UHGV virus genome: UHGV-0140992
Length of the DNA stretch: 40,633 nt
Direction: 5' to 3' (one strand)
Origin: a virus
In this document: positions 10,399 through 40,633 of the stretch, one piece after another
Position numbering within the stretch: the first letter of the stretch is position 1
Layout of the letters: each line of letters starts with the position of its first letter
Position numbers and translations under genes: made by a program
Notes under the pieces: model-generated
What the model was told of the DNA's origin: nothing
The model's input: the letters and a program-made list of their open reading frames with translations, nothing else
Databases searched by the model: none

Positions 10399-10439
10399 AG
10401 TATTCAAAACCCATCAAATTCATCATGCATAATCTACTC

Positions 10440-10795: not shown

Positions 10796-10901
10796 TCCAC
10801 GCCAGATTGATTAATGACTCCCAGGTAATATAAACCCGGATACCAGCAGCCAGGCCGAAACCAATCACCATGGCATAAAGCAGAGCGTTGCACTTGTTCA
10901 T
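10779..10901 (-). CDS. possible small hydrophobic protein, 40 aa (MNKCNALLYAMVIGFGLAAG...)
   Basis: AGGAGGT RBS; start overlaps the stop of the DUF551 gene (TGATG); inner part of track ORF 10779..11048. Confidence 0.3.
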   Translation of the reverse strand: MNKCNALLYAMVIGFGLAAGIRVYITWESLINLAWSAIRG

Positions 10902-17729: not shown

Positions 17730-18029
17730 ATGAACGTTAATCAGCAGAAAAATCTTCAAAAAATCATGCTGGCATTCGACAAGGACTACCGCCTGTCAGA
17801 ACAGCTATATGACCGACAAGTTGAACTGATTGAGAGCATCCGACTTCATCAACTGTCCTCAACTTTCGACGTTGTAACAGGCAAAGGCGTTCGTCAGGAA
17901 GTGCTGGAGGCTGCTAAAGACAGCCCTGAGTTCGAAGAACTGATGGATGCCTACCGGCGCGAGGCAATGGCAATTATAGCGCGCTGGGATCTGGCGGATC
18001 AGCTTGATGGGCAGAGGGACGCGGCATGA
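17730..18029 (+). CDS. hypothetical early protein, 99 aa (ATG at 17730)
   Basis: GGGAGG RBS 8 nt upstream; stop overlaps the exonuclease start. Confidence 0.5.
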   Translation: MNVNQQKNLQKIMLAFDKDYRLSEQLYDRQVELIESIRLHQLSSTFDVVTGKGVRQEVLEAAKDSPEFEELMDAYRREAMAIIARWDLADQLDGQRDAA

Positions 18030-18925: not shown

Positions 18926-18934
18926 GGAGAAAAA

Positions 18935-19957
18935 ATGTCTATCAATGCACTTAAGGCAGCGGCTACCGGTAACCAAGTTGCACATCATAATGAGAAACCA
19001 ACAACTCTGGCCGGACTTCTGGCAGACCCAAAAATTAAAGCTCAGATGGCTTTGGCACTTCCAAAGCACATGACAGCAGACCGTCTGGCGCGCATAGCAA
19101 CCACAGAGATCAGAAAGGTTCCAAAACTTGCATCATGCGACCAAGCCAGCTTCCTGGGGGCAATTATGCAATGTGCCCAATTGGGTCTTGAACCAGGCGG
19201 AGCTCTTGGACACGCTTACCTGATACCGTTCGACAAACGCCAGAAAGTAAATGGAAGATGGGAAACCGTATCTACAGAAGCACAGCTGATTATCGGCTAT
19301 CGCGGAATGATTGACCTTGCCCGCCGCTCTGGGCAGATCCTGAGTATCTCGGCTCGTACCGTACATACAAACGACAAATTCAGCTACTCATACGGCCTGG
19401 AAGAAACGCTCGAGCATTTACCTTGCGAAACAGGTGACCGCGGAGAATTAACGCACGTTTACGCCGTTGCACGACTGAAAGATGGCGGAGTCCAATTTGA
19501 AGTTATGAGCCGGGCAGACGTTGAGAAAGTTCGTGCACTGAGCAAAGCCGGTAGCAGTGGCCCATGGGTTGATCACTTCGATGAGATGGCTAAAAAAACA
19601 GTAATTCGCCGACTGTTCAAATATCTTCCTGTTTCTATTGAAATGCAGAAGGCTGTTGTTATGGATGAGCGCGCTGAAGCTGGACTTAGCCAAGATAACG
19701 CAGCTGTTATCACTGGTGAATATTCCGTAGTTGACGATGAGCGTCAACACCTGTCGCCAATTTCAGATTCAGAACGAGAAGAAGCTCGAGAATATATCAT
19801 CGCGATACTTAATAGCCTGGATCCATCTGCTGAAGATGCAAAAACGATGTTCAAGCGCGCTGAAAATGAAATTAACACCATGGCTGAAAAGCTCGGTGAT
19901 GAATATCACCAAAAATTCATGATGACGCTTAACGATATGCGTCCAGAATTCGAGTAA
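18935..19957 (+). CDS. recT: RecT-family single-strand annealing protein, 340 aa
   Basis: RecT-like motifs (GLEPGGALGHAYLIPF); classic exonuclease-RecT pair. Confidence 0.85.
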   Translation: MSINALKAAATGNQVAHHNEKPTTLAGLLADPKIKAQMALALPKHMTADRLARIATTEIRKVPKLASCDQASFLGAIMQCAQLGLEPGGALGHAYLIPFDKRQKVNGRWETVSTEAQLIIGYRGMIDLARRSGQILSISARTVHTNDKFSYSYGLEETLEHLPCETGDRGELTHVYAVARLKDGGVQFEVMSRADVEKVRALSKAGSSGPWVDHFDEMAKKTVIRRLFKYLPVSIEMQKAVVMDERAEAGLSQDNAAVITGEYSVVDDERQHLSPISDSEREEAREYIIAILNSLDPSAEDAKTMFKRAENEINTMAEKLGDEYHQKFMMTLNDMRPEFE

Positions 19958-21502: not shown

Positions 21503-22753
21503 TTATTCCCCCGCCATCCACTTCTCAAACTTCGACGGGGAGAACGGAATCAGATCCGTATGCTCCCCGTCAATCCATGAATCAATCATATCGGCCCACT
21601 GCTGCAACATGTAGGCGCGCTGTCTGGCGTATTCCGCTTTGTTATATACGGCGCGCACACCTTTCTGCTCATGTGCCAGAGCCTTTTCAATCCAGTCTGA
21701 AGGATAACCAGCCTCATGCAACAACGTACTGGCTGTACGGCGCATATCATGTACAGTGAAGTCCTGAATATGCTCACCATCTTCATTTATTATTTTCACC
21801 GTTCTGTCGATCAGAGAGTTCAGCGCGGCATTAGATAATGGCTTCCGGAAATTGTAACGACCAGGAACCAGATATTCACTTCCACCAGCGCACATCTGCA
21901 ACCCGACCAATATATCCTGTGCCTGTTTAGGCAGGTAAATAACGTGCGCCCGGCTTCCCTTCATGCGGTCTGGAGGAATTGTCCATGTCCATTTTTTAAA
22001 ATCTATTTCATCCCACGTTGCATTGGTGAATTCGCCCTTACGAACCATAGTGATAAGCACCAGTTTTAAAGCCATTTTCATAGTGCCCATAGCACCAATG
22101 GCATCCAGCGTGCGGAAGAACAGGCCAATTTCTTCTGGTGCCAGTGTTCGCTCTCGTGGTTTAAATATGGCGATAGACGAAGGTTTAATGTCAGCCGCAG
22201 GATTAAACAAACCATGACCACGGTCATTGGCGTGACGGTATACGCTACTGATGATCTCCCTGGCCTGCACTGCTGTTGCCCGGCCACCGCGTTCGACAAT
22301 CCGGTCACACAAATCACGAACCATCGATGTGGTAATTTCAGCCATCATTTTATTGCCAAGAACCGGAAGTATGTCACGGTCGATCACCGCCTGTTTCATT
22401 GCGCGGGTACTGTCAGCCAGGATGACGTGTTTCATATAACTGTCGGTATGTACCGCAAACGTCTCGGCACCACGAATCTTTTTGATACCGTCACGTTTAG
22501 CCGCAGCCGGTGACTGGCCTGCTTTAAGCAGCTTCTTTGCAGCAATCAGTTCTTCTCGCGCTTCTGCCAGGCTGATACCGTCACGCCCATACTGCCCGAT
22601 TACCAGTGTTTCGCGGCGACCGTTGATACGGTAGTCATAGCGAAACGAGACCGTGCCTGACGTAAGCACAGCTACATACAGCCCGTCACGATCGGAGACC
22701 TTGTACAGTTTGTCCTGCGGCTTGAGGTTTTTTAATTTTGTATCGGTAAGCAC
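21503..22753 (-). CDS. int: tyrosine integrase, P4-like, 416 aa
   Basis: N-terminal arm-binding-type domain and C-terminal catalytic region (HDMRRTASTLL ... Y); GTG start. Confidence 0.9.
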   Translation of the reverse strand: MLTDTKLKNLKPQDKLYKVSDRDGLYVAVLTSGTVSFRYDYRINGRRETLVIGQYGRDGISLAEAREELIAAKKLLKAGQSPAAAKRDGIKKIRGAETFAVHTDSYMKHVILADSTRAMKQAVIDRDILPVLGNKMMAEITTSMVRDLCDRIVERGGRATAVQAREIISSVYRHANDRGHGLFNPAADIKPSSIAIFKPRERTLAPEEIGLFFRTLDAIGAMGTMKMALKLVLITMVRKGEFTNATWDEIDFKKWTWTIPPDRMKGSRAHVIYLPKQAQDILVGLQMCAGGSEYLVPGRYNFRKPLSNAALNSLIDRTVKIINEDGEHIQDFTVHDMRRTASTLLHEAGYPSDWIEKALAHEQKGVRAVYNKAEYARQRAYMLQQWADMIDSWIDGEHTDLIPFSPSKFEKWMAGE

Positions 22754-22795
22754 AATTCACCCGTATAGAAACCATTTTCATGACGGTATGAGAGT

Positions 22796-22810
22796 ATACC
22801 TTTAAGGTAA
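22796..22810. promoter_or_regulatory. operator-type site ATACCTTTAAGGTAA (one mismatch)
   Basis: about 45 bp upstream of the integrase start. Confidence 0.4.
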
Positions 22811-23043
22811 TACCGTCACCTGTACCGACGAAAAATATGGTGTATAGTGAATAGAAATGAATACATAAAAACAAAAACCCTCTGTTTTTACAGAGGGTTA
22901 AATTAGTATCTGAATAGGAATGAGTTGCTATGAGTTAGCTGTTAATCATTCCCACTCAATTATTTACGATAACCATAACCAATTGAGTGATAACATTTTT
23001 CCAAATCTCAATTTTTCCCGTACCGTTTTATATACCGTCACCG
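22811..23043. other. candidate attP region with direct repeats TACCGTCACC (about 22811 and 23034) and GTACCG
   Basis: non-coding region next to int; repeated 10-mers about 220 bp apart; 9-bp inverted repeat cactcaatt ... aattgagtg around 22950-22990. Confidence 0.3.
22866..22899 (-). terminator. intrinsic terminator at the end of the late/lysis operon
   Basis: aaccctctg-ttttta-cagagggtt 9-bp stem followed by TTTTTGTTTTT on the minus strand. Confidence 0.6.
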
Positions 23044-23070
23044 GAAATCAGTACCATGAAAAATGCCATG

Positions 23071-23553
23071 CTATCTGGTCAAAGTGTCGTACTGTTTTTC
23101 GCAGACTCTTCCGGCTTCGGCTGCCCGGTCAGCATACTCTGCCAGTTGTCTGTTTCTCTCGAGAGATTTGCTGAGCACGTCGGCAAGCAAAACTCCGGTG
23201 TCTGCGGCTGACGACCCAGCGCCGACAATGGCGTTATACTGCCTGAGCTGCTCACGGATGGCAAAGAGTTGTTGCTGCAACCGGCCAGCGCTAGCGGCAG
23301 CATCAAGAGCATCATTGCGCGCCTGGTCGATCCTCTGCTGAGCTTCACGTTCATTGGTCACTTTCTCCTGTTCGTAGTACTGACGAACTTTGTCTTCTTC
23401 GGCTTTGCGGTCTTCTTCCGCCTGAGCATACCCGGCATCGTACTGGCGACTGCCGTGTATATTCCAGGCAACCACTCCTGATATGACCAGAACAGCAAGC
23501 ACTGCCACGATAAGAAACTGTTTCCAGTATGCTTTTACGAATGCCCAGATCAT
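23071..23553 (-). CDS. Rz-like i-spanin, 160 aa
   Basis: N-terminal TM helix then charged coiled-coil; follows the endolysin with ATGA overlap. Confidence 0.7.
23079..23315 (-). CDS. Rz1-like o-spanin lipoprotein embedded in Rz (+1 frame)
   Basis: lipobox LALAGC after a short signal sequence; Pro/Ser-rich; fully embedded in Rz. Confidence 0.5.
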   Translation of the reverse strand: MMLLMLPLALAGCSNNSLPSVSSSGSITPLSALGRQPQTPEFCLPTCSANLSRETDNWQSMLTGQPKPEESAKNSTTL

Positions 23554-25149: not shown

Positions 25150-25178
25150 CCCGCAAAATATTGCGGGCTTTTTTTTAA
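25150..25178 (+). terminator. plus-strand intrinsic terminator abutting the tailspike stop
   Basis: cccgcaa-aata-ttgcggg followed by CTTTTTTTTAA; U-run only on the plus strand. Confidence 0.45.
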
Positions 25179-28100
25179 CGTTCTTCCAGAGACTGAATCC
25201 GCTCTTTTATCTTATCCATTTCTCTGCGCTGCCATGCTGCCTCGATATAGAATAAGAGATCAGGTCTGACCCCCCATCTAGATCCTGCTGGCGTTATTTC
25301 AACGCGCTCAATGATGTCTTCCATTACCATCACTGGATTATCATCCTCATCAACAATGATGCTCCCGTCATTATCAGTCAGCGGCATTTCCCTTTGGCCA
25401 GTAATGACGTCATCATATACTGCGGGATAATCGTCATAGCAAAGAAAGGCATAGCGGCATGTTGTGCTTTCTTCTTCCATGAGTCCGTGAGAAATAAGAA
25501 CATCACGAAGTTGCTGCGCGATTACACCATGATGTATCCTCGCCCCTTCTTCCCCCTTTATAGCGACAGCGTTCAGCCATTTATAAGCGATATACCTGAC
25601 GTCACCCCAGGCATCCAGCAATGCTTCGTCAGGAGAGACCGGCTCTGTCTTTAATGTTCCGTCACTGGTAACCACAGGATTGGAGCCAAGATAAACTGTC
25701 GAGAACCTGTTTCCCGGACCACCAAGAGCATTTACATTATCAAGATAAGGTTTAACATCTCCGTTCTCAAAAAGATGTTCGAGTGCGTTATATACCGCGC
25801 GACGTGGAGTACTGCTTCCGGAACCATGCAACGTTATCATTGCACCATCTGCTGAAGACGTTATTTCACCGCCGCTAACGATTAATCTCTGAGCGGTAAC
25901 ATCATCAGACGGTACTTTCTTCGCAATAATGGCGTAATTACCCTCAAGTTTGACTTCCGCGCGAACTTGTCCTGATGTACCTGCATGGACAGTCAGTGAC
26001 TGGACGGCAACATCATCTGTGAAATCAACGGGTACAGGAACCGTCCTCACGCCTGACGTCGACATAAAAGTAGGAAGCGTTCTGTTAGGAGTGGCTCCGT
26101 AGACAAAATCCCTTGAAACAAATTCTTCCTGTTTAATTTTCACCCTGAAACAATACAAATCAGCCGGGTGACCATCGTGAACATAAGGATATTTTCTGTT
26201 GTTATCCCCTATGCTCCATGGGTTTAGAAAGTCTTCCCCACCGAAAATGTAGTACAGCCAGTTGTCTTTGATACAAACTGAACCAACACCAACTGCAGAG
26301 TTAACTATTCCGCCCTGATAAATCTGATCAGTAACATTAACCCACTCTACATTATCCAGACTCCACTCATTGACGTTAACTCTGGTCATAAATGTTCTTG
26401 GATAATTTCCTGCATAACGGTTATCAGGTTCTCCTCCTTCCCACTCACCAAATGCGCGCTCACTGCCAAAAATAATCAGCTCATCGCCAACTTTGGCAAA
26501 AGGAAGGTTTGAGTGATGAACATTATTTGGGAAGCGAAGAGAATTCCATGATGTACCTAAATCAGAGCTTCTGTGCAATGAACTACCGGGTTGAGTACTT
26601 AATGTCCCCCTGGTCGTCAGATACAGAATGCCATCATAATATTTTACACATGGCTCAGATGCATTCGCCTCATATTCTGCAGGTATGCGTCTGCGAACAA
26701 AGCTACCAGGAGAACCGAAAGCATCAGAGAAATAGAGTATCCCAAGCTCGCGTGGACCAATATCACCATTATGGTAGCCAACAGCAAAACTGTTATCGCT
26801 AATCGTCGCAAAACTGTGAATCTCAGTAACAGGAGTGCTTCCGTCAACAAAAGAAGGAATAGTTCCAAGACTGGTTTTTCTCCATGGTGACGAGTGAAAT
26901 GATGTACCAAAACTCCAGTATCTACCCTCGTTATTCTGATCCACATCCTGGGTATTTTGCGTCGTAACTGTAAAAGTATTTTTATCAATAACAGTAGTCA
27001 CCGTCATATTCCCGGTAACACCTGTAACACCAGAGTTTGAGAAGTTGACAAAATCACCAGCAAATAATCCGTGATCAGTAATGCGAATATAAGCGACTTG
27101 CTGATTTGCTGCTTTCGTTATACCACCATAAGCGCGAAGGCTGCGACTCATTGGGCGATCCCACAACTCTGCAACCTGCAGTTTATTTCCGCTCACGGTC
27201 CGCGTCTCAATTACAGCAAAAAGGCGATTTCTGACAACCCCCATACTCATGCAGTGATAGTTAACTGTGGGATAGTTTTCATGTAAATCTGTAAGCCATT
27301 CCGGCGTTGTCCAGGTCTTCCCGTCATCTCCTGAGCGAACCCATGCAACATGGAGGTTATTTACACCATGGCGGTCTCCAGCCATAAAAGGCGCATAGAT
27401 GACATTGTCATATACAAACGTTTTATCCTGCGTCCAGGCGTTGTACCACGGTGTATCTGTAATTTTAAATAACTCTCCCTGGATAAAATCTTCAGAAGCA
27501 TAAAAAAGAGGCTGGCCCGGTATTCTCTCAAATAAAAAACGAGCATTTTTAAATCGACTGACATCCGGAAGAGTTGATACTTTAAAAGTAAGCCCTAATC
27601 CGTCAATTTTATAACCTGGAGATGAGGCTTCAAGGCACGCGCTTATTGCAGTGGAATCGTCATTTATACCATCACCAACAGCTCCAAAATCTTTGGGGCT
27701 AATAGCATCACGCATTTTATCCTGGAACGTTCGGTACACAGCCCCAGAACCATACTGAATAAACCAACCAAAACCACCAACAACCCCGGCGATTGCAGCA
27801 TCGACATAATTACGCATTGAGCGATTATTTACAGCGTCCTGCTCAAATGATGGATCTGCAAGGTTAGAAATTTTGTTTTGCTTTGCATCGTAATATTTTG
27901 CAAGCAAAGATGGTTTCATCAATGCACGTCTGAACCACCCAAAACATTGCTGGATCAGCATCGTCAGGTAGTCAAAGGCATCTTCATGCACTTCGGGGAA
28001 AAATTTTCCCTGATTGCGAAGGTCTGTCTCCTGCACTACATCAAGCACACGATCTATCGTAATTCGCCATCCAGTAGCAAGCGGAGACGGAAGAACCACA

Positions 28101-28294
28101 GAACCGCCACTATAAGTGCCCGCCCCAGTTACCGTATAACCGGTATCCAGAACCAATTCTGTTACGTTTCCGTTCAGGTCAGACACCTGAACAACCAGGT
28201 CTGATTTTCTGAAAATTCGAAAAGTATACGGAAACGATGTCGTAACGCCGTTACCGGTGTATTCGTTGTGGTCAACTTCGGTTGAGACCGTCAT
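25175..28294 (-). CDS. tailspike endo-N-acetylneuraminidase (K1 endosialidase) with C-terminal intramolecular chaperone domain, 1039 aa
   Basis: long blocks match recalled phage K1F endosialidase (FERIPGQPLFYASEDFIQGELFKITDTPWYNAW ... EWLTDLHENYPTVNYHCMSMGV); chaperone-domain motifs (LGSNPVVTS, TEPV, DAWGDV) near the C-terminus. Confidence 0.85.
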   Translation of the reverse strand: MTVSTEVDHNEYTGNGVTTSFPYTFRIFRKSDLVVQVSDLNGNVTELVLDTGYTVTGAGTYSGGSVVLPSPLATGWRITIDRVLDVVQETDLRNQGKFFPEVHEDAFDYLTMLIQQCFGWFRRALMKPSLLAKYYDAKQNKISNLADPSFEQDAVNNRSMRNYVDAAIAGVVGGFGWFIQYGSGAVYRTFQDKMRDAISPKDFGAVGDGINDDSTAISACLEASSPGYKIDGLGLTFKVSTLPDVSRFKNARFLFERIPGQPLFYASEDFIQGELFKITDTPWYNAWTQDKTFVYDNVIYAPFMAGDRHGVNNLHVAWVRSGDDGKTWTTPEWLTDLHENYPTVNYHCMSMGVVRNRLFAVIETRTVSGNKLQVAELWDRPMSRSLRAYGGITKAANQQVAYIRITDHGLFAGDFVNFSNSGVTGVTGNMTVTTVIDKNTFTVTTQNTQDVDQNNEGRYWSFGTSFHSSPWRKTSLGTIPSFVDGSTPVTEIHSFATISDNSFAVGYHNGDIGPRELGILYFSDAFGSPGSFVRRRIPAEYEANASEPCVKYYDGILYLTTRGTLSTQPGSSLHRSSDLGTSWNSLRFPNNVHHSNLPFAKVGDELIIFGSERAFGEWEGGEPDNRYAGNYPRTFMTRVNVNEWSLDNVEWVNVTDQIYQGGIVNSAVGVGSVCIKDNWLYYIFGGEDFLNPWSIGDNNRKYPYVHDGHPADLYCFRVKIKQEEFVSRDFVYGATPNRTLPTFMSTSGVRTVPVPVDFTDDVAVQSLTVHAGTSGQVRAEVKLEGNYAIIAKKVPSDDVTAQRLIVSGGEITSSADGAMITLHGSGSSTPRRAVYNALEHLFENGDVKPYLDNVNALGGPGNRFSTVYLGSNPVVTSDGTLKTEPVSPDEALLDAWGDVRYIAYKWLNAVAIKGEEGARIHHGVIAQQLRDVLISHGLMEEESTTCRYAFLCYDDYPAVYDDVITGQREMPLTDNDGSIIVDEDDNPVMVMEDIIERVEITPAGSRWGVRPDLLFYIEAAWQRREMDKIKERIQSLEER

Positions 28295-31780: not shown

Positions 31781-34255
31781 TTATTGCGGAGTGACATCCT
31801 GTGGTCGCCACCAGTATGTCTGGTTAAACTCTTTCTTCGAACGTTGCTCCATTTTACGCAAATAACCTGGTGAAAAATACTCCTGCATCTGGTTAAAGAT
31901 CATGTGATCGAGAGCCGCCTTCAAGTACCAGAGATTCGCACCTGGCATCAGACCTTTCCCCAGCTTAACCAGATCACCACCAGTCTGCTCACTCTTCCCT
32001 TCCACAGCATTTAACGGTATGCCCTGAGCAATCTTCACTACGTCATCAACCAGACCAGCTACCGGGCCAAGCATCGACGCCAGCGCGCCGCTTCCGTACC
32101 TAGTGTGATCTGACAATAAAAAGTCACCGTAAAGGCCAAGACCACCACCTTTCAGTAGAGCACCAAGCCAAAATTTAGCAGCATCTTCTCCTGTCATCTC
32201 GCGAGGATTACGACCAGACGCAAGGTCGTTAAGTTGCTGCGACAAAGCGCCAAGAATGGTCGTACTGGCAATAAACGTCGCAATATATGCCGCACGCCCA
32301 CCAGCAGACGGCATACCCATAGCGCGTGACCAGTGACGCATAACCACCGAGATAGGGAACGATTTAAACAGGAAAACACTTCTCGTTAATTCACCTTTCC
32401 ATGTTCCACGCTGAATACCAGAACCGGTTATCAGTTGCTCACGTGCTCCCGGTGTAATAACAGCCATATCAACTTCTTCAGTTACGGCACCGAGCAGTTT
32501 ACGCATTGCCTCAAATTTCACGCGTTCAGGCTCACCAAGATGTTTAACTGCTGAATCAGGGATACGCATAATGCTTTCCGGTGTCAGCATCGTATTATTA
32601 CCGTTCCCCCAGTCCTCCTGTTTCGCCAGCTTCCATACGCTCCAGTCTGTGTCAGTAATCCCTTTGCTTTTCAGGATACGAAAATCAGAGTCATCGAGGC
32701 TACGAAGGTCTGGTGTACGTGACACTACTTCTCCCAGGCTTCCCATCATGGTTACGCCATAGGCGCGCTTGTGCGCATCTGACCATGCTGTAAGCCCACT
32801 GGCACGCATTACCGCCGTTGCCGCCCAACGAGACACTGACGGCCCCATATTATCCATCGCCCAGCGGTTAACGCTGCCAAGTAGAGATTCCATCGCCAGA
32901 CCAGCGCGGCGCGCCCGCGCAAGTTCTGTACGGTTCGTTGGGTCCATAGCTTCAAGCTGGTTGCGGAATAACTGGTTCATTGGAAGGTTGGTAACCTTCG
33001 CAGACAGATACATGGTTCCAAGATCAGAGAACGATGACAGCAACGCGGATCCGAGTCTGCTGGCAACCAGCCAGTTGCGGATATTGTCAGACCATCGCGC
33101 GATGTGCGGATTCGCTACAGGCTGTGTCTTTCCGGAAATAAAGTTGTACAGATTCTCTGTGTTGTTCGCCAGCCGCTCGACTTTACCGGTTTTACTCGGG
33201 TTAGCTGTTGCCGTTTCTGCCTTCACCTGATCAAGAAGAGAGCGGAAAACATGATCGGGGTTTGGGCCATATGTTTCCACCAGTGCAATATCTTTACTGA
33301 TACCTTCCAGGTGACCGACCATGATTTCCCATAGAGAGCGATCGCCATAAAGTTGCTGATATTGCAGATAGGAATCTGCATCTTTGAAATGTATCTGTCG
33401 TGATGCATTACCACGGTTAGCACGTGCGCCGGAAATTCGCATTCCGGTATCAGTAAGCTTATTCAGCCCACCAGTAGCGATCGTGTTATAAGCCTCTCCA
33501 AGAAATGAAGACAACTCGGCATCGTTCATCAGTTGTCCATCGGCTCGGATATAATATTTGCGATCCAGCTTACCTATAACATCGCTAACCCACTTATCCT
33601 TTGATACTGCCCCAACCTTTTCCATAGAATGATGTTGAGGGATCCCCCAGTTTTCGAGATAGCCAATGTCCCCACCAGCATCATTAAACCGGCGGCGCAG
33701 CAGCTCTGTAACTTCTCTCCACGCCTTAGCACCGTTTCTTGCTTTAGCATTGCCAGTATTTTGCCCCCGCATTTCATATACCAGGTCACGTACGCCCGCT
33801 TCATCTTCAAACAGACCAAAAAAGCGAGGATCAACTGCTTCGAATGCCTCCTGCAATTGACTCAATGCATAATCACGGGTGGCTTTTGTTCTGGATTCAA
33901 CAGAGAGGAAATTAGATTTACCGTCTGCATTAAAAGCTATAGTACGGTTAAGAGCGCCAAGTTTCCCATCAGCCCCTTGATAGCTATTGATAAATTTATC
34001 CAATCTCTGACGCGCGGCTATAGTGAGAGCCACACGACGTTTCTTTAATGCCGCTTCTCGCTGTAATTCTTCAGATGCCAATTGTGCTGCTCGATATAGC
34101 CGCTCTGATTCGGAAAGTTGTCTCCACGACATCGGGTCATCACGAGCAATGGAGCGCATATTTCGATAAATGCGGTCTTCAATGTTCTGTATTTCTCGCG
34201 CCGTTAACGTGCGCTGCGCCGCCTGCTGGACCGCTTGTATACATTCCTGTCTCAT
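31781..34255 (-). CDS. internal virion / ejection protein, 824 aa
   Basis: large co-oriented protein in the gp14-gp16-equivalent block after the tail tube genes. Confidence 0.55.
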   Translation of the reverse strand: MRQECIQAVQQAAQRTLTAREIQNIEDRIYRNMRSIARDDPMSWRQLSESERLYRAAQLASEELQREAALKKRRVALTIAARQRLDKFINSYQGADGKLGALNRTIAFNADGKSNFLSVESRTKATRDYALSQLQEAFEAVDPRFFGLFEDEAGVRDLVYEMRGQNTGNAKARNGAKAWREVTELLRRRFNDAGGDIGYLENWGIPQHHSMEKVGAVSKDKWVSDVIGKLDRKYYIRADGQLMNDAELSSFLGEAYNTIATGGLNKLTDTGMRISGARANRGNASRQIHFKDADSYLQYQQLYGDRSLWEIMVGHLEGISKDIALVETYGPNPDHVFRSLLDQVKAETATANPSKTGKVERLANNTENLYNFISGKTQPVANPHIARWSDNIRNWLVASRLGSALLSSFSDLGTMYLSAKVTNLPMNQLFRNQLEAMDPTNRTELARARRAGLAMESLLGSVNRWAMDNMGPSVSRWAATAVMRASGLTAWSDAHKRAYGVTMMGSLGEVVSRTPDLRSLDDSDFRILKSKGITDTDWSVWKLAKQEDWGNGNNTMLTPESIMRIPDSAVKHLGEPERVKFEAMRKLLGAVTEEVDMAVITPGAREQLITGSGIQRGTWKGELTRSVFLFKSFPISVVMRHWSRAMGMPSAGGRAAYIATFIASTTILGALSQQLNDLASGRNPREMTGEDAAKFWLGALLKGGGLGLYGDFLLSDHTRYGSGALASMLGPVAGLVDDVVKIAQGIPLNAVEGKSEQTGGDLVKLGKGLMPGANLWYLKAALDHMIFNQMQEYFSPGYLRKMEQRSKKEFNQTYWWRPQDVTPQ

Positions 34256-34260
34256 TTAAT

Positions 34261-36063
34261 TTAACCTCTCAAGAAACACGCCACAGCGACATCAAACAGG
34301 CTGGAATCCTGTATTGCCTGCTCACTTTCCCTGTTCGCTTCATCCAGTACTTCACGCGCGCTGCGCGATTGTGGATTACCATCATCATCCAGCACGGTGA
34401 TTATCATGTCCGGATATTCAAGCAGCGAGTCTTCAGCTATACGCAGATCAATATCTCCTGCCGGATCTGCCATCATTTTTTGTTCTGTCTGTTGCAATAT
34501 CTTACCGGGATCAAAAGGAGCTACTTCGTCTGGCGTCCTGACCTCTGCTGTTTTATAGAATGAAACAGCCTGAGCATTAAGTTCACTTTCTGCCTGCTGT
34601 CTCCGAGCCAGTTCTGCTCGAGCTTCAAAAAACTGACCGCCAGGCTCATGCGGTGCCAACGCGTTACGGGAAAATTCCAGGCGTTCTTGTGCCTGCCGGA
34701 TTCGTTGGTCAATATCCCGAAGTCTGGCCTGTTTATCTGATCGAGCACGAGACAAAGCTTTACCGCTACCGGCTGGATCTTCTGCAAGAATTTGTGCGCG
34801 CTGTTCAGTGAGATTTTCAATAATTCGTTGGCTATTAGCGATTTCAGACTGGTAAACCTGTCTATCGCCACGCGGCAAAAGCTGCGCGGCCTGTTCTTCA
34901 AGCAACCGATTTTCTATAGCGCGCGCCGTTACTCCATCATCTACAGATGACAGAGCCTCATTAACTGCCTGAGACAGCAGACTCTTGCGTCCAGGAATTT
35001 CACTGAAAGATGCAGACTCAACAATGCTGGCAACGTCTACAGGTCTCCCCTGGCTAACATCAGACATGGCTTTTCGCAGAGCCTGAATGTGCGAATTACG
35101 CGAAAGCACGTTGATCGGCACGCCGGGAGCAATATCAATTTCAGCATGATGAGCGGCATTCGCCGCCAGTGCAGCATCGATATCAACTGGTGAAAAATTT
35201 GGTGCGCTTGTAGACTCGCCGCGAGAGTTAATAAATCTGCCGACACCACCAAACGCCACCCCAAGAACAGCATCAATAGCAATTGCCTGTCGATCCAACA
35301 CATCATACTGGTTAGCCATTTCGCTATAGCCACCATCACGAAGCGTTTTTGCAGTAAGCCCACGCTGTGCCATACCGAACGCAATATTTGTACCTGCGGC
35401 ATAGGCAATATCTGGCGTTGCACGTACTGCTGTTGCTGCGGCGCGTCGCACTGAACTTTCACCCGTCCGCGCAAGCTGAGCCGCCACACCTTCCGCCAGC
35501 GCACCACCAGCACGTAACCCGAGGCTCATAGGGATCAGTGTTCCGGCACCAGCAGTAATACCCTGCACTAATCCCGCTTCCTGCGCCGTCCTGAAATCAA
35601 CACCCTGTGCTGTAAGCCGTTCAAACTCAGAAAAACCCTGTAGAGAAGTTACCGCCGCAGCACCTCCGACCGGACCACCGAGCGTTGTACCGACAACAGC
35701 CTGCCCGCCCATATCGAACAACCCATAAAGGACCTGCCCGGCGGTTCCGGTTGTCGCGGCATCAGGCGTCAGCCGCTTAACCTGCTGCTCTGCTAGTTTT
35801 CTCTGCTCAGCAATGTATGAAACTGAAGTGTCATTGATCGAGGTGTTTTCGTTAACAAACTGAGCAATCGGGGATACGATTTTATCCATCCCTGCCCATA
35901 GCAACTGATCTGGCTTTGCCACCAGCCCGGAGTACAAACCAGACAATGCCGCTCCTACAGCATTGTCGAAAAAACCAACATCGCTGTTAAAGCCAGCTGG
36001 ATTTGATGCTGCTTCGTCAAGCTGCTGATTCTGGTTTACTGGATTAAGGCCAAAGTAACTCAT
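34261..36063 (-). CDS. internal virion / ejection protein, 600 aa, Gly/Ala-rich
   Basis: glycine-zipper-like hydrophobic stretches; position in the ejection-protein block. Confidence 0.5.
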   Translation of the reverse strand: MSYFGLNPVNQNQQLDEAASNPAGFNSDVGFFDNAVGAALSGLYSGLVAKPDQLLWAGMDKIVSPIAQFVNENTSINDTSVSYIAEQRKLAEQQVKRLTPDAATTGTAGQVLYGLFDMGGQAVVGTTLGGPVGGAAAVTSLQGFSEFERLTAQGVDFRTAQEAGLVQGITAGAGTLIPMSLGLRAGGALAEGVAAQLARTGESSVRRAAATAVRATPDIAYAAGTNIAFGMAQRGLTAKTLRDGGYSEMANQYDVLDRQAIAIDAVLGVAFGGVGRFINSRGESTSAPNFSPVDIDAALAANAAHHAEIDIAPGVPINVLSRNSHIQALRKAMSDVSQGRPVDVASIVESASFSEIPGRKSLLSQAVNEALSSVDDGVTARAIENRLLEEQAAQLLPRGDRQVYQSEIANSQRIIENLTEQRAQILAEDPAGSGKALSRARSDKQARLRDIDQRIRQAQERLEFSRNALAPHEPGGQFFEARAELARRQQAESELNAQAVSFYKTAEVRTPDEVAPFDPGKILQQTEQKMMADPAGDIDLRIAEDSLLEYPDMIITVLDDDGNPQSRSAREVLDEANRESEQAIQDSSLFDVAVACFLRG

Positions 36064-38573
36064 TGCGGAATATCTCCGGAGAATCTCTGACGCTTCTGTG
36101 TCAGATTAAGAACAACGGGAGAACCATCATCTTTCAGCAGATAACCAGTACCAAGTTTCACCAGGTACTGACTATCGCCGTAACTTTGCAAACCATACTG
36201 ACCAGGCGGTGTTTTTATCCCGGAGCCGACAACTTGTTCATTCCAAGCCTGATTAACCTGCTTATCGAATTGCTCTGCAGACATTCCCCACGGCAAAAGG
36301 ACATTCCCCATTCCGTTATAGTCATGCACGCCACCTGTAGCTACGTTAACAGCCTGTTTCCAGACATCATTGTCAATTTCGCCTGATACCACGCCTTTTT
36401 TCGCCATCACACCAGCGTAATAATCCTTTGCGATCTCGTATGCCATTGATGCGCCCTGAGCGTCACCAGCAAATGCATCCTTCACCATGTCAGAAAACTC
36501 AAGGCGAAGATCAGCATCTTTAGGCATCGGAATACCTTTCGCATCATCAGTACCTTTACGAGCCGCCGCGCCAGCAAGAATTGTCTGCGCAGCGGTTTCA
36601 GGAGACACGGAAACATCCGGATTAAACCAGTTTTTTTCTGCCAAAATACCACCAGGCTTATCCATCAGTATCCCGGCAACGGCAGCAGATGGAGCGTTGG
36701 CACTGATCTGCTGTAGTGCTGACATATACACCTGCCCACCACCAGTGCTCTGCCTGATGGTATCGAGATATGCTGCCTGTTGGGAAACTGGAGCATCACG
36801 AAAGAAAACACCGATCTGATTGGCCTCGTCTTTGGAAAAGAACGTCAGTGGAGTGCCATATGACTTAGCAAGGTCACTGACCTGAGCGGCACGCAAGGCA
36901 ACGCTCTGTCCAAAGTTATCCTTATTGCTCATGTCGATAGGCTTTGCCTGTCGGGAGGCAAGAGAGAACTGCACAGGATCCGACTGCCGCTGCTTTATCA
37001 CCTGATTTGCAGCCGAAACAACGTTGTCATAAAGAGTTGCGCGTGCCGCATACCCCTCCCCTGTATCACCAGTATCCGGGCGTAATTGCTCAACATATGC
37101 TGTAATGCTGCTTGTCGGCATGTTGCGGAAAGAGCCTATATACTGTCCGGCGATCTGCGTATTCTTAAACTCGGTATATCGCAGGTTTCCTTCTCTGACT
37201 CCATAAGCTGCAATAAAATCATCCTCACCAGGTGGGTTAGGAAATTCAATGCCACGCATATACGCAGCCGTCGCATCGCGAACCCGGCTGTCGAGCATCG
37301 TTTTATATTCAGCCTGCTGTTGTCTGGCTAGTGCATCAGTCTGTCGCAACACGCTGGCCTGATCTGATTCACTTAAAGCATCGAACCAGGCTACACCGGT
37401 ATAACGTTTATTTTTTGTCGGTAGCTGAGAAAGCCCCAGCGCAGCACTAACACCTGCAGTTAACTGCTGATCACTGTATGGCTGGCTACCGTTTTCATGA
37501 TGGATAATGGCTGCACAAAGCGCCTTCAGGGTATCAGGATTTGATGCATCGAGAGGCTCATCAGCAGAAACGCCAAGTTGTTCGCACACTGCTTTGATAT
37601 ACGACATAGTGTCATTTTTATCAGTAGGCGGTGCCCAGCGATTAATTATCTCGCTGACGGTATCAATACCCTGCCGCTGATACGACATCAGGTTCCGCCC
37701 TAATGCACGAATACCGTGTTCAGGGGTTTCGAATTTGGCAAAGCGACCATCATCACCAGTCTGCCCAACCCACGGATTAGTTTTGCTGTATTCAAGATTG
37801 CCGGGGTTATTGTTGCGTATACCGCGGGTACGATCGGAAGAGCCACTATCTGCTACAGCACGGCGAGAACCAGCAGCAGTATCGCTTAACTCGCCGTTTT
37901 GCTGTCTTACCTGAAGATAGTTTGCTCCAATAGCATTTTGAGCAGTTGCTTTTGCTGTTGCTTCTTTAAACTCGATTTTCTTGGCCTGGATTTGCTCGTC
38001 ACTCCAGCCATGTGCAATGCCGTAATCCTCAATTTGCTGGAAAGTTTGCTTATTAGCCAATACGTATGCGGCGTTGTCGCCATACAATGCTGCGGCATTT
38101 TTACCATTGTTCAGCAGCGTAGCCTGAAACTGGCCTTCTTCGTAGGCATTTATTTGCCCTATCTCGTGCCGCCCGGCCTGCGTAGTGAACTGAATGCGCT
38201 GCTGCTGCGCCTGCTGCATGAAAGCATTACGAGCCTGTTCATCCGGCAGCGACATAGCCAGTTGTTCGACCTGAGCATCAAACTGCTGCGTATACTCCTG
38301 ACCTTTTCCAATAGCATTTTTCCCTTTCAGGTTAAGCAAACCTGTTTCAGGGTTATTCAGCAGATCGCTGCTTATCTGGCTTAAGCTAAGAGAAGCATCC
38401 TGAGCCATAGCAACATTCGCACGCTGTTTTGCCTGCGCAATAATACCTGCATATTGCTCTGCAACATCGCCAAGTACATCACCGACATTTGGTGTCTGAA
38501 ACGATGAGAATCCCTGCGTCGAAATCCCTCTGCTCTGAACCTGACGGCCCGATGTTGTTGGTACAACTGGCAT
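36060..38573 (-). CDS. internal virion protein, 837 aa, possible cell-wall-degrading domain
   Basis: position; conserved-looking GIRNNNPGNLEYS ... RFAKFETPEHGIRALGRNL block that I associate with virion-borne muralytic domains (recall, uncertain). Confidence 0.5.
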   Translation of the reverse strand: MPVVPTTSGRQVQSRGISTQGFSSFQTPNVGDVLGDVAEQYAGIIAQAKQRANVAMAQDASLSLSQISSDLLNNPETGLLNLKGKNAIGKGQEYTQQFDAQVEQLAMSLPDEQARNAFMQQAQQQRIQFTTQAGRHEIGQINAYEEGQFQATLLNNGKNAAALYGDNAAYVLANKQTFQQIEDYGIAHGWSDEQIQAKKIEFKEATAKATAQNAIGANYLQVRQQNGELSDTAAGSRRAVADSGSSDRTRGIRNNNPGNLEYSKTNPWVGQTGDDGRFAKFETPEHGIRALGRNLMSYQRQGIDTVSEIINRWAPPTDKNDTMSYIKAVCEQLGVSADEPLDASNPDTLKALCAAIIHHENGSQPYSDQQLTAGVSAALGLSQLPTKNKRYTGVAWFDALSESDQASVLRQTDALARQQQAEYKTMLDSRVRDATAAYMRGIEFPNPPGEDDFIAAYGVREGNLRYTEFKNTQIAGQYIGSFRNMPTSSITAYVEQLRPDTGDTGEGYAARATLYDNVVSAANQVIKQRQSDPVQFSLASRQAKPIDMSNKDNFGQSVALRAAQVSDLAKSYGTPLTFFSKDEANQIGVFFRDAPVSQQAAYLDTIRQSTGGGQVYMSALQQISANAPSAAVAGILMDKPGGILAEKNWFNPDVSVSPETAAQTILAGAAARKGTDDAKGIPMPKDADLRLEFSDMVKDAFAGDAQGASMAYEIAKDYYAGVMAKKGVVSGEIDNDVWKQAVNVATGGVHDYNGMGNVLLPWGMSAEQFDKQVNQAWNEQVVGSGIKTPPGQYGLQSYGDSQYLVKLGTGYLLKDDGSPVVLNLTQKRQRFSGDIPQ

Positions 38574-38585: not shown

Positions 38586-39125
38586 TTATCGACCGGTTGG
38601 AGTGCCAACAGCAGCAGAAATCGGCGCAGCCTTCTGAGAGAACGGGCTCCACGTTCCGCCGCCCATCTGGTATGCACCGTATGCTTTTAGTGGTGCCGTT
38701 AACAAAGTGCTGGTCATCGATGATTTAGCAGCCGACTGAGCAGCAGCCCCCTGTGCCTGAGCATTCATTCCCTGAACCTGATACCCATATGCCTCACGCT
38801 GAGCATTATTCACTGTCGTTAACGCATCAAGAGTGCCGAACTGAGCATTATCCGCAAAAACGTCAAGAGCTGTTCCGCTACTTAATTCCGCACCGGTAGC
38901 CCCCATAGTGGCCGCCGCAGTGCCTGAGCGTTGACGCATTTCACGACGACGCTGATCCGCTTCAATATTCCCACGATTGATTGAATCCTGTGCCTGAGCT
39001 TCAGCAATTTCAGCATTCCGATCAGCTATGGCTGACTGGTATTTTGCCTGCTTGCTCTGGCTGTACATTGACGCGGCTGTGGATGCCACTGTGACGGCAA
39101 CCAAAGCGATGGCTGGGTTACACAT
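38586..39125 (-). CDS. internal virion protein, 179 aa (gp14-like position)
   Basis: N-terminal hydrophobic helix then Ala/Gln-rich region. Confidence 0.4.
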   Translation of the reverse strand: MCNPAIALVAVTVASTAASMYSQSKQAKYQSAIADRNAEIAEAQAQDSINRGNIEADQRRREMRQRSGTAAATMGATGAELSSGTALDVFADNAQFGTLDALTTVNNAQREAYGYQVQGMNAQAQGAAAQSAAKSSMTSTLLTAPLKAYGAYQMGGGTWSPFSQKAAPISAAVGTPTGR

Positions 39126-39589
39126 TATTTTCTCTCCATGTGAAATCTGTGGAAATTAAGACCAAGAGCACCATAAGGCGCGGCTTCTTCAAGCCTGAAT
39201 CCAAGCCAGTGCAGCCATGCTTTGGCAACATGGTTTCGCTCGTCGACGTAGTTTTCCAGGCGCGGATAAACTGCCAGCATCTGCTGCAATACAGGGCGGC
39301 AGTGGCGAAGAAATGTCTTCTGATATTTTTCAATACGGCTGGTTCCTACCAGCCAGGGCGTACCATTGCCACCGATCATTGACGCCGGAGATACGCCAAA
39401 CATGGTTACCAGTTCTCCGTTCGCAAATCCTGACCAGGCCATAGTCGCAGTACGCAGACCAACACGCAGCGCATCTTCGGTAGTCATCAGTGATACCGCA
39501 TACAGTTCGTCAATATCAGCCTGACGAACATCCGGCAAAATCATCTGAAGATGCTCTTCGGTTGCGGGAATAATTTGAACATTGATCAT
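39125..39589 (-). CDS. virion protein, 154 aa (gp13-like position)
   Basis: position between tail tube B and internal virion proteins; stop/start overlaps. Confidence 0.4.
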   Translation of the reverse strand: MINVQIIPATEEHLQMILPDVRQADIDELYAVSLMTTEDALRVGLRTATMAWSGFANGELVTMFGVSPASMIGGNGTPWLVGTSRIEKYQKTFLRHCRPVLQQMLAVYPRLENYVDERNHVAKAWLHWLGFRLEEAAPYGALGLNFHRFHMERK

Positions 39590-40633
39590 CAGAACCCACC
39601 AACAGTAAGGCGAGGAATAACGGCAAGAACAGACAGCGGCAACGGATCAAGCTGACGGATTTTTACACGTCCGTTTTTGCCCCAGTTACTGTCCAGTTTC
39701 ACTTCTACTTTTCCGGTAGCATCATCAACAGGATCATCGTAGAACTCGAATTCACGCTGTGGATATTCGTACCATTTACCGCCGGGCGTAGTCGCCCAGA
39801 TGCCGCGACTGGCATTCACAACCAGAGTAACGGACGGGATCACCTGTTTTTTGTCCAGCAGCGTTTCCTGTCCGTTAATGTTGATATCCAGTGTTTCGAA
39901 TTCAGCAGTTATTGGCAGGCCGATGTGCACTACAGCCCCCGGTGATTCCAGCGTGACGGCACATCCGGAAACCACTTTCTGTGGTTCCACGTTCGCATCA
40001 GAGAGAATGTTTACGGTCTGGCCTTCAAGATGAGACAGGCCTCCAAATGTCCGGCGCGCCATCTGCCAGTTCGTGGTGGCCACATTCCTGAGGGATGGCG
40101 GGACGTTCCTGTTAGCACGAACCACTACAGCGGTATTGCTGGTTACAGAAATAATGTCGCAACGTAATTCTTTTGACACCTCATCGCCAGTATCAGGATC
40201 AGTTCCGGTATAAGGGAACTGTAGTTGCGCGCCGACATCACTACTGGTGAAGTACGCACCACCAGAAACACTGATTGTATATTCCGCGCGGTAATCCCAT
40301 TCGCCAGAACCACCAGTGATGATCATCGTTCTGTCAGACGTATTTCTTCCATCATAGCTAAGGCCAGAATCAACAAAGAAAGCATCTTCATCGCTGGTAA
40401 ATAAACGGCTGGACAGTCGCTCGATGTATCTCACTGTTTGCCCGTTAACGGTTCGGTTAACGACGAAATACACCGCATCTTCATTGCCTTCGCTGATACT
40501 GCATGTGCTTTCATATTTTCCGGTACTGGATTGTGGTGCCCATGCAAAAACCTGCTGATCACGCAAATAGGTCATCACCAGTAATTTACCGTCATCACGG
40601 ATGCAGAAGGCGCTGGAGTAAGGGACTATTGAG
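39589..40633 (-). CDS. tail tubular protein B-like, C-terminal part (continuation of the gene at 1..1427 across the window junction)
   Basis: frame of track ORF 39589..40578 stays open up to 40632 and joins the frame ending at position 1 through junction codon TTC; combined about 823 aa, comparable to T7 gp12 (794 aa). Confidence 0.55.
   Translation of the reverse strand, partial: SIVPYSSAFCIRDDGKLLVMTYLRDQQVFAWAPQSSTGKYESTCSISEGNEDAVYFVVNRTVNGQTVRYIERLSSRLFTSDEDAFFVDSGLSYDGRNTSDRTMIITGGSGEWDYRAEYTISVSGGAYFTSSDVGAQLQFPYTGTDPDTGDEVSKELRCDIISVTSNTAVVVRANRNVPPSLRNVATTNWQMARRTFGGLSHLEGQTVNILSDANVEPQKVVSGCAVTLESPGAVVHIGLPITAEFETLDININGQETLLDKKQVIPSVTLVVNASRGIWATTPGGKWYEYPQREFEFYDDPVDDATGKVEVKLDSNWGKNGRVKIRQLDPLPLSVLAVIPRLTVGGF

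What the first reader, a model, noticed from the sequence alone, without database searches (positions are those of the whole stretch)
39589..40633. Window ends split one gene: the sequence is a circularly permuted complete phage genome
The minus-strand frame from 1427 to 1 (475 codons, stop-free by manual translation) leaves two bases that, joined to base 40633, form codon TTC and continue in frame into the open frame of ORF 39589..40578 (whose track start is only a GTG). The result is one gene of about 823 codons at the T7 gp12 position. This implies a circular assembly of a headful-packaged or replicative genome, not a prophage flanked by host DNA.
Basis: seen in the sequence. Interest (0 to 1): 0.5.

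Follow-up and report, generated by a model that had tools for sequence, protein, structure and literature searches.

The report
Circular phage genome cut inside nozzle gene
The two ends of this sequence are neighbouring bases of one tail-nozzle gene, because the record is a complete, circularly assembled genome of an ordinary phiV10/epsilon15-like temperate E. coli phage that happened to be opened inside that gene.

Summary
On the minus strand, 1427..1 and 40633..39589 join in frame through a split TTC codon. The result is one 2472-nt gene of 823 codons plus stop. Its product is 815/823 identical, ungapped, to phiV10 gp15, the epsilon15 gp12 homologue. It matches a solved "Tail Nozzle" chain end to end, and an AlphaFold model matches T7 gp12 nozzle structures. 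Window bases 1 and 40633 are adjacent nucleotides in eight related phage genomes, and a 40-mer spanning the junction lies inside 18 independent viral contigs.

The whole window is colinear, full circle, with the 39.1-kb phiV10 genome (genus Uetakevirus). It carries the experimentally known attP core (ATTGAGTGGGAATGATT, 22944..22960) 190 bp upstream of the integrase, with phage DNA on both sides. In lysogens the same sequence breaks exactly there, against guaA and yfgI. So this is the excised or virion form of a complete phage genome, not a prophage with host flanks.

Headful packaging is the best inference, because TerL is 81% and TerS 88% identical to phage Tyrion, which was shown to be circularly permuted. 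It cannot be proven without reads.

This is an ordinary consequence of writing a circular assembly as a line, and there is no new biology in it.

The parts
1..1427 (-). 5' part of the tail nozzle gene (codons 1-475 plus the first two bases of codon 476). The ATG is at 1427..1425.
   Evidence: Identical in length and register to phiV10p15. It does not appear in the mechanical ORF list because it runs off the end.
39589..40633 (-). 3' part of the same nozzle gene (third base of codon 476, codons 477-823, TGA at 39591..39589). The TGA overlaps the ATG of the next gene (ATGA).
   Evidence: PDB 8ck1_A 'Tail Nozzle' aligns 2-822 in one stretch. Foldseek hits T7 gp12 nozzle structures.
1427..2032 (-). 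Upstream neighbour: a roughly 201-aa connector/adaptor protein, counterpart of epsilon15 gp11 and at the T7 gp11 position.
   Evidence: PDB 8ck1_E 'Connector Protein', E 2.9e-26. Corresponds to phiV10p14.
39125..39589 (-). Downstream neighbour: a 154-aa internal virion protein at the T7 gp13 position.
   Evidence: phiV10p16 'internal virion protein'. PMC4819975 calls this position IVP-A. No Pfam hit.
38586..39125 (-). 179-aa internal virion/core protein of the T7 gp14 family.
   Evidence: Pfam PF24072 T7_gp14, E 8.2e-08.
31781..38573 (-). Three large virion/ejection proteins (837, 600 and 824 aa), at the T7 gp15/gp16 position.
   Evidence: ORFs. Colinear with phiV10p18-p20. No Pfam hits.
9733..10407 (-). 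Terminase small subunit.
   Evidence: Pfam Terminase_2, E 1.4e-29. 88% identical to Tyrion TerS. Weak match to PDB 3zqp small terminase.
8261..9736 (-). Terminase large subunit.
   Evidence: 99.4% identical to phiV10 TerL. 81% identical to Tyrion TerL. No Pfam or PDB sequence hit.
5233..6912 (-). Portal protein.
   Evidence: Pfam Head-tail_con, E 6.4e-187.
3241..4233 (-). Major capsid protein (epsilon15 gp7 type).
   Evidence: Pfam PF20911 GP7, E 2.1e-149.
22944..22960 (-). attP core ATTGAGTGGGAATGATT, identical to the 3' end of E. coli guaA. It lies 190 bp upstream of the integrase start.
   Evidence: Single exact match in the window. Three-way alignment with attL/attR of lysogen A33. Published as the attP of ZX5, phiV10 and epsilon15 (PMC9782041).
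21503..22753 (-). Tyrosine integrase (P4-type, with an arm-binding domain).
   Evidence: Pfam Arm-DNA-bind_3, Phage_int_M and Phage_integrase.
25175..28294 (-). Tailspike: an endosialidase that degrades K1 polysialic-acid capsule, with a C-terminal chaperone domain.
   Evidence: Pfam End_N_terminal, End_beta_propel, End_beta_barrel, End_tail_spike and Peptidase_S74.

Best explanation
The window is the complete genome (40,633 bp) of a temperate podophage of the genus Uetakevirus (phiV10 / epsilon15 / ZX5 type) that infects E. coli. It is written as a linear record opened at an arbitrary point inside the tail nozzle gene, the homologue of epsilon15 gp12 and T7 gp12.

Shown here: the map is circular and complete, the ends are adjacent bases of one intact gene, the DNA is in the attP (non-integrated) configuration, and there is no host DNA.

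Inferred: virions of this phage are filled by a headful mechanism. TerS/TerL would cut concatemers at slightly more than unit length, so virion DNAs are terminally redundant and circularly permuted. Reads from such a population, or from the excised circle or concatemer in an induced culture, assemble into a circle, and the assembler or depositor cuts that circle anywhere. After injection the DNA would recircularise through its terminal redundancy. Integrase could then recombine the 17-bp core with the 3' end of guaA, which moves the map's ends to attL/attR and leaves the nozzle gene uninterrupted.

The 823-aa protein itself would form the hexameric beta-propeller nozzle below the 202-aa connector ring. 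This role is inferred by homology to the solved Carin-1 and T7 tails.
For: The junction is seamless. The frame and length are correct. The product is 815/823 identical and ungapped to phiV10 gp15. A 3000-nt junction query aligns in one 3000:3000 piece to 16 phages. Window bases 1 and 40633 map to adjacent coordinates in HEMP4 (23457|23458), PAS61 (23376|23377), phiv142-3 (16433|16432), phiV10 (10489|10490), O157 typing phages 9 and 10, EC.W1-9 and TL-2011b. The exact junction 40-mer lies inside 18 IMG/VR contigs.

The map is a full circle. Window 1->10447 equals phiV10 10489->1, window 10448 onward equals phiV10 39104 downward, and window 40633 equals phiV10 10490.

The DNA is in the attP form. 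There is one core at 22944..22960, and its arms match the int-guaA side and the yfgI-lysis side of the A33 prophage. Hundreds of lysogen matches end at 22960. The published attP is identical and sits at the same 190-bp distance from int.

The nozzle identity is supported by PDB 8ck1_A, a model with pLDDT 89 in which a beta-strand at 471-477 runs through the junction residue, and Foldseek hits to T7 gp12 and P22 gp10. There are 18,263 homologous cluster representatives, with alignments spanning residue 476.

Headful packaging is supported by TerL 81% and TerS 88% identity to Tyrion. Tyrion's contig had terminal redundancy and its ends were shown by PCR to be circularly permuted (PMC5754475). 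The ends of Ab31, whose TerL is 53% identical, could not be located (PMC3974807). TerL shows weak similarity to P1 PacB.

There is a precedent for the artefact. pHL15EC-2 is a 41,027-bp circular RefSeq record of the same kind of phage, and its origin splits the portal gene.
Against: No reads are available, so neither physical circularity nor the packaging mode is observed for this particular phage. TerL has no Pfam, NCBIfam or PDB sequence match, so its packaging class cannot be read from a curated family. No paper in the searchable library states the end structure of epsilon15 or phiV10 virion DNA. Tandem prophages with an internal attP-like junction exist in E. coli chromosomes (FDAARGOS_1301, unit 40,637 bp). 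A unit-length slice of such an array would look identical.
Confidence: 0.93

Rival explanations
1. The window is one unit-length slice of a tandem (double) lysogen in a bacterial chromosome. The array would read attL-phage-attP-phage-attR. Any window exactly one unit long would then begin and end at the same point and contain an internal attP.
For: Such arrays exist. In E. coli FDAARGOS_1301 the same nozzle protein (WP_033551244.1) recurs 40,637 bp apart, with a contiguous attP-like junction between the copies. The att-spanning query has three places in that record. Nine of 572 genomes with a match cover the att region contiguously.
Against: The window would have to be exactly one unit long, to the base, with no overlap and no gap. 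That is expected for a circularised contig but would be a coincidence for a slice. The odd length of 40,633 suggests a whole record. No complete E. coli genome in RefSeq covers more than about 83% of the first 25 kb of the window, at 97-98% identity.
Confidence: 0.03
2. The phage has fixed ends (cos or short direct terminal repeats). The circle would arise only because the assembler joined ends through concatemer or ligated-end reads. The genome would then be complete and the split gene real, but the virion DNA would not be circularly permuted.
For: TerL is not assignable to a curated family. phiV10, epsilon15 and Tyrion records all open just upstream of terS, which could reflect either a physical end or mere convention.
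Against: Tyrion, with 81% (TerL) and 88% (TerS) identical terminase subunits, was experimentally reported as terminally redundant and circularly permuted. The ends of Ab31 could not be found by PCR. TerS belongs to Pfam Terminase_2 and resembles PDB 3zqp; from my own recollection, not checked here, that is the SPP1/SF6 pac-type family. The phiV10 record ends (window 10447|10448) are contiguous here without any repeat.
Confidence: 0.05
3. The record represents a genuinely extrachromosomal, plasmid-like circular form of the phage carried in a bacterial isolate, rather than virion DNA.
For: RefSeq holds 41,027-bp circular 'plasmid' records of the same phage type in two duck E. coli strains (pHL15EC-2 and the SF10 record).
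Against: The window encodes integrase plus a validated attP, and lambda-type replication genes, but no partition or plasmid-maintenance genes were noticed. Relatives are overwhelmingly integrated at guaA. ZX5 lysogens release 10^7 PFU/mL spontaneously, which is enough to yield a separate circular contig in an isolate assembly. This rival only changes where the DNA came from, not what the feature is.
Confidence: 0.1

Closest known systems
Escherichia phage phiV10 (NC_007804, Uetakevirus), gene PhiV10p15
   Same: The nozzle protein has the same length (823 aa) and is 815/823 identical. The whole genome is colinear full circle. The attP core and integrase are the same.
   Different: The phiV10 record is opened upstream of terS, so the gene is intact there. 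The window has other cassettes, and about 27% of it is not matched by phiV10: an endosialidase tailspike instead of the O157 tailspike and O-acetyltransferase, separate YqaJ and RecT genes instead of the fused RecE/RecT gene, and a different set of small early-region genes.
Escherichia phage vB_EcoP_ZX5 (MW722083) and HEMP4
   Same: About 98% nucleotide identity over about 75% of the first 20 kb. ZX5 carries an endosialidase-type tail protein, integrates at the guaA 3' end and has an identical attP core.
   Different: The records are opened at other positions. Some early-region modules differ.
T7 gp12 (tail tubular protein B / nozzle) and the Carin-1 phage tail nozzle (PDB 8ck1_A)
   Same: Same fold. 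Foldseek gives 8ck1_A TM 0.89 at 44% identity, and T7 gp12 chains at E 1e-21 to 1e-23 with TM about 0.53. The position is the same, after the gp11-like connector and before the gp13/gp14-like internal proteins.
   Different: Sequence similarity to T7 gp12 is below pairwise detection (BLASTP E 2.6). The profile comparison is only marginal (hhalign E 5e-4, probability 31%). The host phage is temperate and epsilon15-like, not an autographivirus.
Enterobacter phage Tyrion (NC_031077)
   Same: Uetakevirus with the same gene order. TerL is 81% and TerS 88% identical. It is reported to be terminally redundant and circularly permuted.
   Different: About 80% nucleotide identity, and a different host and tailspike.
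pHL15EC-2 (NZ_CP079771.1), a circular 41,027-bp 'plasmid' record
   Same: The same kind of phage genome deposited as a circle, with the record origin splitting a structural gene (the portal gene). This is the same artefact.
   Different: A different break point, a different tailspike (SGNH hydrolase) and an added acyltransferase.

Membership tests
Genus Uetakevirus (epsilon15 / phiV10-like temperate podophages) | Genome-wide nucleotide similarity and colinear gene order with phiV10 / epsilon15 | tested here: met
   Matches of 80-98% identity to phiV10 cover 29,522 of 40,633 bases in strict circular colinearity. Best records are HEMP4 and ZX5 at 98% identity over about 75%.
Genus Uetakevirus (epsilon15 / phiV10-like temperate podophages) | Epsilon15-type capsid and portal module (gp7 major capsid, gp10 staple, T7-like portal) | tested here: met
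   Pfam GP7 E 2.1e-149 and Head-tail_con E 6.4e-187. The gp10 staple counterpart lies at about 2032..2355, by colinearity with phiV10p13.
Genus Uetakevirus (epsilon15 / phiV10-like temperate podophages) | P4-type integrase with attP core ATTGAGTGGGAATGATT targeting the guaA 3' end | tested here: met
.
Podophage tail nozzle (T7 gp12 / tubular tail B family) | Beta-propeller nozzle fold shared with T7 gp12 | tested here: met
   AlphaFold model with pLDDT 89 and pTM 0.85. Foldseek hits are 8ck1_A at E 9e-87, T7 gp12 chains 7boy_s, 6r21_a, 7ey7_s and 9jyz_P at E 1e-21 to 1e-23, and P22 gp10 at 5e-08.
Podophage tail nozzle (T7 gp12 / tubular tail B family) | Detectable sequence homology to T7 gp12 | tested here: inconclusive
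   BLASTP E 2.6. The 30-sequence profile against T7 gp12 gives hhalign E 5e-4 but probability 31%, aligned to T7 270-466. The same profile hits another solved 'nozzle gp13' (23sh_T) at 1.8e-05. PMC4819975 reports the link by PSI-BLAST/HHpred.
Podophage tail nozzle (T7 gp12 / tubular tail B family) | Gene position between the gp11-like adaptor and the internal virion protein genes | tested here: met
   The sizes are 202/823/154/179/837 aa, against T7 196/794/138/196/747 aa.
Podophage tail nozzle (T7 gp12 / tubular tail B family) | Hexameric assembly at the tail tip of the virion | not testable with these tools
   This would need virion proteomics or cryo-EM. It is inferred from 8ck1 and the T7 structures.
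Headful (pac) packaging phages with circularly permuted, terminally redundant virion DNA | Circular assembly or map without fixed ends | tested here: met
Headful (pac) packaging phages with circularly permuted, terminally redundant virion DNA | Terminase closely related to that of a phage with experimentally permuted ends | tested here: met
   TerL 81% and TerS 88% identical to Tyrion. Tyrion's ends are described in PMC5754475.
Headful (pac) packaging phages with circularly permuted, terminally redundant virion DNA | Permuted read starts, a pac fragment, and packaged length greater than unit length in virion DNA of this phage | not testable with these tools
   No reads or virion DNA are available.

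The most novel reading that the evidence does not exclude
The least ordinary reading that the evidence does not exclude concerns the source of the record. It could come from a cell in which this K1-capsule-specific epsilon15-like phage is maintained as a free circular replicon, a phage-plasmid-like state. The 41-kb 'plasmid' records of related phages in two duck E. coli isolates would then be examples of the same state, rather than by-products of spontaneous induction.
Probability: 0.04. Interest if true: 0.35.

Novelty: already known. Interest (0 to 1): 0.08.

Why it matters
The value is practical, not biological. The record should be treated as circular. Any ORF caller run on the linear string will miss the 5' 1427 nt of the nozzle gene and will mis-start the 3' part at an internal GTG. 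Rotating the sequence, for example to just upstream of terS at about 10,448 or to the attP core, restores a complete 823-aa nozzle gene. It also makes the genome directly comparable with phiV10, epsilon15 and ZX5. Finally, the result settles that the contig is a complete, non-integrated phage genome of a well-described genus. Nothing about the junction needs a new mechanism.

Tried and rejected
- Looked for a terminal direct repeat or assembler overlap at the ends and found none of 10 nt or more. The ends simply abut.
- Tried to classify the packaging type from TerL through Pfam, NCBIfam and PDB sequence searches and got no hits. tblastn gives only weak P1 PacB similarity, 24% identity over 45% of the protein, so the inference rests on Tyrion instead.
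- Searched the literature for a direct statement on epsilon15 or phiV10 virion DNA ends and found none in the held library. The Kropinski epsilon15 genome paper could not be retrieved under the id I guessed.
- Tried direct BLASTP of the nozzle protein against T7 gp12, which was not significant. It was replaced by profile and fold comparisons.
- Tried to locate the window's own source contig in IMG/VR with two internal 40-mers. There were 35 and 106 hits, none from a 40,633-bp contig. The window is also not in RefSeq complete E. coli genomes or in the INPHARED phage collection at near-identity.
- Local BLAST against the lysogen locus failed because that locus was not exported to the script machine. 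The att comparison was done with DNA alignment instead.
- Rejected the reading 'prophage with host flanks' because attP is intact and no host gene is present.
- Rejected 'false circularisation through a repeat' because the junction is colinear in many independent genomes.

Full report
**1. The observation**

The first 1427 bases and the last 1045 bases of the window were read on the minus strand. The concatenation 39589..40633 + 1..1427 was reverse-complemented and translated. It is 2472 nt long, a multiple of three, and gives 823 sense codons followed by one stop.

Codons 1-475 are encoded by 1427..3. Codon 476 is TTC (Phe), made from the complements of bases 2 and 1 plus base 40633. The remaining codons run to a TGA at 39591..39589, which overlaps the ATG of the next gene.

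The mechanical ORF list shows only 39589..40578 (329 aa, GTG start) and nothing for 1..1427, because ORFs running off an end are not listed. No terminal direct repeat of 10 nt or more exists.

**2. The join is real and not a chance frame match**

- The joined protein has exactly the length of phiV10 gene product p15 (9063..11534). It is 815/823 identical to it without any gap, and 41 residues centred on residue 476 are identical.
- It matches PHROG 376 'tail protein' from residue 1 to 823 in one stretch. It matches the solved chain 8ck1_A 'Tail Nozzle' over residues 2-822 in one stretch, E 2.5e-216.
- The large protein collection holds full-length 819-826-aa relatives at 82-99% identity and 100% coverage. 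A HMMER scan of 1.84 billion cluster representatives finds 18,263 homologues, whose best stretches (for example 298-822) run through residue 476.
- At the DNA level, a 3000-nt query built across the junction aligns as a single 3000:3000 piece to 16 phage records at 97.7-99.5% identity.
- In the two half-window searches, window base 1 and window base 40633 map to adjacent coordinates in HEMP4 (23457|23458), PAS61 (23376|23377), phiv142-3 (16433|16432), phiV10 (10489|10490), O157 typing phages 9 and 10, EC.W1-9 (16650|16651) and TL-2011b (22056|22057).
- An exact 40-mer spanning the junction occurs inside 18 independent IMG/VR contigs.

**3. What the window is**

The window is colinear with the 39,104-bp genome of Escherichia phage phiV10 (genus Uetakevirus) around a full circle. 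Window 1->10447 equals phiV10 10489->1. Window 10448 onward continues at phiV10 39104 and runs downward. Window 40633 equals phiV10 10490. The differences are cassette replacements typical of temperate phage mosaics.

All modules are present:
- TerS (Pfam Terminase_2) and TerL
- portal (Head-tail_con)
- epsilon15-type major capsid protein (GP7)
- connector, nozzle and internal virion proteins
- tailspike and lysis genes
- integrase
- YqaJ/RecT recombination genes and an MT-A70 methylase
- repressor and replication genes

This rests. One tRNA-Arg(TCT) lies at 7561..7637.

**4. Integrated or not**

Matches to several hundred E. coli chromosomes stop at window 22960 next to guaA. One lysogen, E. 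coli A33, was fetched with its prophage between yfgI and guaA. Its two junctions were aligned with window 22700..23150.

The window is identical to the int-guaA junction up to a 17-bp core. It is identical to the yfgI-lysis junction from the core onward. This is the classical attP versus attL/attR pattern. The core ATTGAGTGGGAATGATT occurs once in the window, at 22944..22960, 190 bp upstream of the integrase start at 22753. It is the published attP core of ZX5, phiV10 and epsilon15, at the published distance from int (PMC9782041).

In the A33 prophage the nozzle gene is an uninterrupted 2472-nt CDS. The window is therefore the excised, virion or circular form of the genome, with no host DNA. 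Its ends lie about 17.7 kb one way and 23 kb the other way from the site where prophage ends would be.

**5. Identity of the split gene**

- Upstream lies a roughly 201-aa protein matching 8ck1_E 'Connector Protein' (E 2.9e-26).
- Downstream lie a 154-aa protein, then a 179-aa protein of Pfam family T7_gp14.
- Three large virion proteins of 837, 600 and 824 aa follow.
- T7 has genes 11 (196 aa), 12 (794 aa), 13 (138 aa), 14 (196 aa), 15 and 16 in the same order.

Direct BLASTP to T7 gp12 is not significant (E 2.6). A 30-sequence profile aligns to T7 gp12 residues 270-466 with hhalign E 5e-4 but only 31% probability. The same profile finds a further solved 'nozzle gp13' at 1.8e-05.

The fold test is clear. 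The AlphaFold2 model has mean pLDDT 89 and pTM 0.85, with a beta-strand at 471-477 running through the junction residue. Foldseek against the PDB returns:
- the Carin-1 phage nozzle (TM 0.89, 44% identity)
- the LME-1 phage tail protein
- several T7-like nozzles, including T7 gp12 itself (7boy_s, 6r21_a, 7ey7_s, 9jyz_P, 8e4g_P; E 1e-21 to 1e-23, TM about 0.5)
- P22 gp10 (5e-08)

Hardies et al. list epsilon15 gp12 as the tubular tail B homologue of T7 gp12 (PMC4819975).

**6. Why the map is circular: mechanism and rivals**

The sequence shows a circle but not which molecule produced it.

The best-supported mechanism is headful packaging. TerL and TerS are 81% and 88% identical to those of Enterobacter phage Tyrion. 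Tyrion's assembly showed terminal redundancy, and its ends were confirmed by PCR to be circularly permuted (PMC5754475). The ends of Pseudomonas phage Ab31, whose TerL is 53% identical, could not be located (PMC3974807). TerL shows faint similarity to P1 PacB, and TerS to the 3zqp small terminase. Inferring permuted, terminally redundant virion DNA from a circular assembly plus a related headful terminase is standard practice (for example PMC4424284).

Against over-interpretation, TerL has no Pfam, NCBIfam or PDB sequence hit, and I found no accessible paper stating the end structure of epsilon15 or phiV10.

Three rivals remain formally open:
- A unit-length slice of a tandem lysogen. Such arrays exist: in FDAARGOS_1301 the repeat unit is 40,637 bp.
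- A cos or DTR phage circularised by the assembler.
- A free circular replicon in an isolate. pHL15EC-2 is a 41,027-bp circular 'plasmid' record of the same phage type, and its origin splits the portal gene.

None of these changes the main conclusion that the split gene is an artefact of linearising a circular, complete phage genome.

**7. Novelty and verdict**

The phage belongs to a well-described genus. Its closest relatives are 98% identical over three quarters of the genome. Its attP, integrase, nozzle and even its endosialidase tailspike are already described for ZX5.

Public records of this genus are themselves circular permutations of one another. Some open upstream of terS, as in phiV10 and Tyrion. 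phiv142-3 opens, and HEMP4 ends, at the base that corresponds to window 22944, the first base of the att core. pHL15EC-2 opens inside the portal gene.

The finding is correct and useful for annotation, since it says to rotate the sequence before calling genes. It is ordinary, and interest is low.

Noticed in passing
window 25175..28294 (-): The tailspike is a complete endosialidase that degrades K1 polysialic-acid capsule. It has the End_N_terminal, beta-propeller, beta-barrel and tail-spike domains plus the Peptidase_S74 chaperone. It sits in an epsilon15-like temperate phage. The same architecture is described for ZX5 ORF7 and is annotated in the related guaA prophages fetched from E. coli FDAARGOS_1301 and A33.
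   Followed up: partly
L003 (NZ_CP070111.1, E. coli FDAARGOS_1301 chromosome, 4854264-4897763): There are two tandem copies of a related prophage, with the same nozzle protein 40,637 bp apart and a contiguous attP-like junction between them. Nine of 572 matching genomes cover the att region contiguously. This is either a true tandem lysogen or an assembly that merged free and integrated forms.
   Followed up: partly
L023 (NZ_CP079771.1, pHL15EC-2, 41,027 bp circular) and NZ_CP079768.1 (strain SF10): Two duck E. coli isolates carry a Uetakevirus genome deposited as a circular 'plasmid'. Its record origin splits a frameshifted portal gene. The tailspike is an SGNH hydrolase with an adjacent acyltransferase. 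I did not check whether these chromosomes also hold an integrated copy.
   Followed up: no
window 7561..7637 (+): A tRNA-Arg (anticodon TCT) lies between the portal gene region and terL, on the strand opposite to the late genes. It is also annotated at the same place in related prophages and in O157 typing phages 9 and 10.
   Followed up: no
phage records HEMP4 (OR424387) and phiv142-3 (MN187550) versus window 22944: The HEMP4 record ends, and the phiv142-3 record begins, at the base that corresponds to the first base of the attP core. These 'phage genomes' are therefore written in prophage (attL->attR) permutation. phiV10 and Tyrion are opened upstream of terS.
   Followed up: partly
phage record PP350014.1 'phage PH444' (114,913 bp), 75,649-114,913: A 115-kb record contains about 39 kb that matches this window and runs to the end of the record. 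This suggests a concatenated or chimeric assembly, or a host fragment carrying a prophage.
   Followed up: no
window 18026..19957 (+): Separate YqaJ-type exonuclease and RecT genes (Pfam) replace the single fused RecE/RecT gene annotated in phiV10 (p37). This is a recombination-module swap shared with the A33 and 20Y000092 prophages.
   Followed up: no
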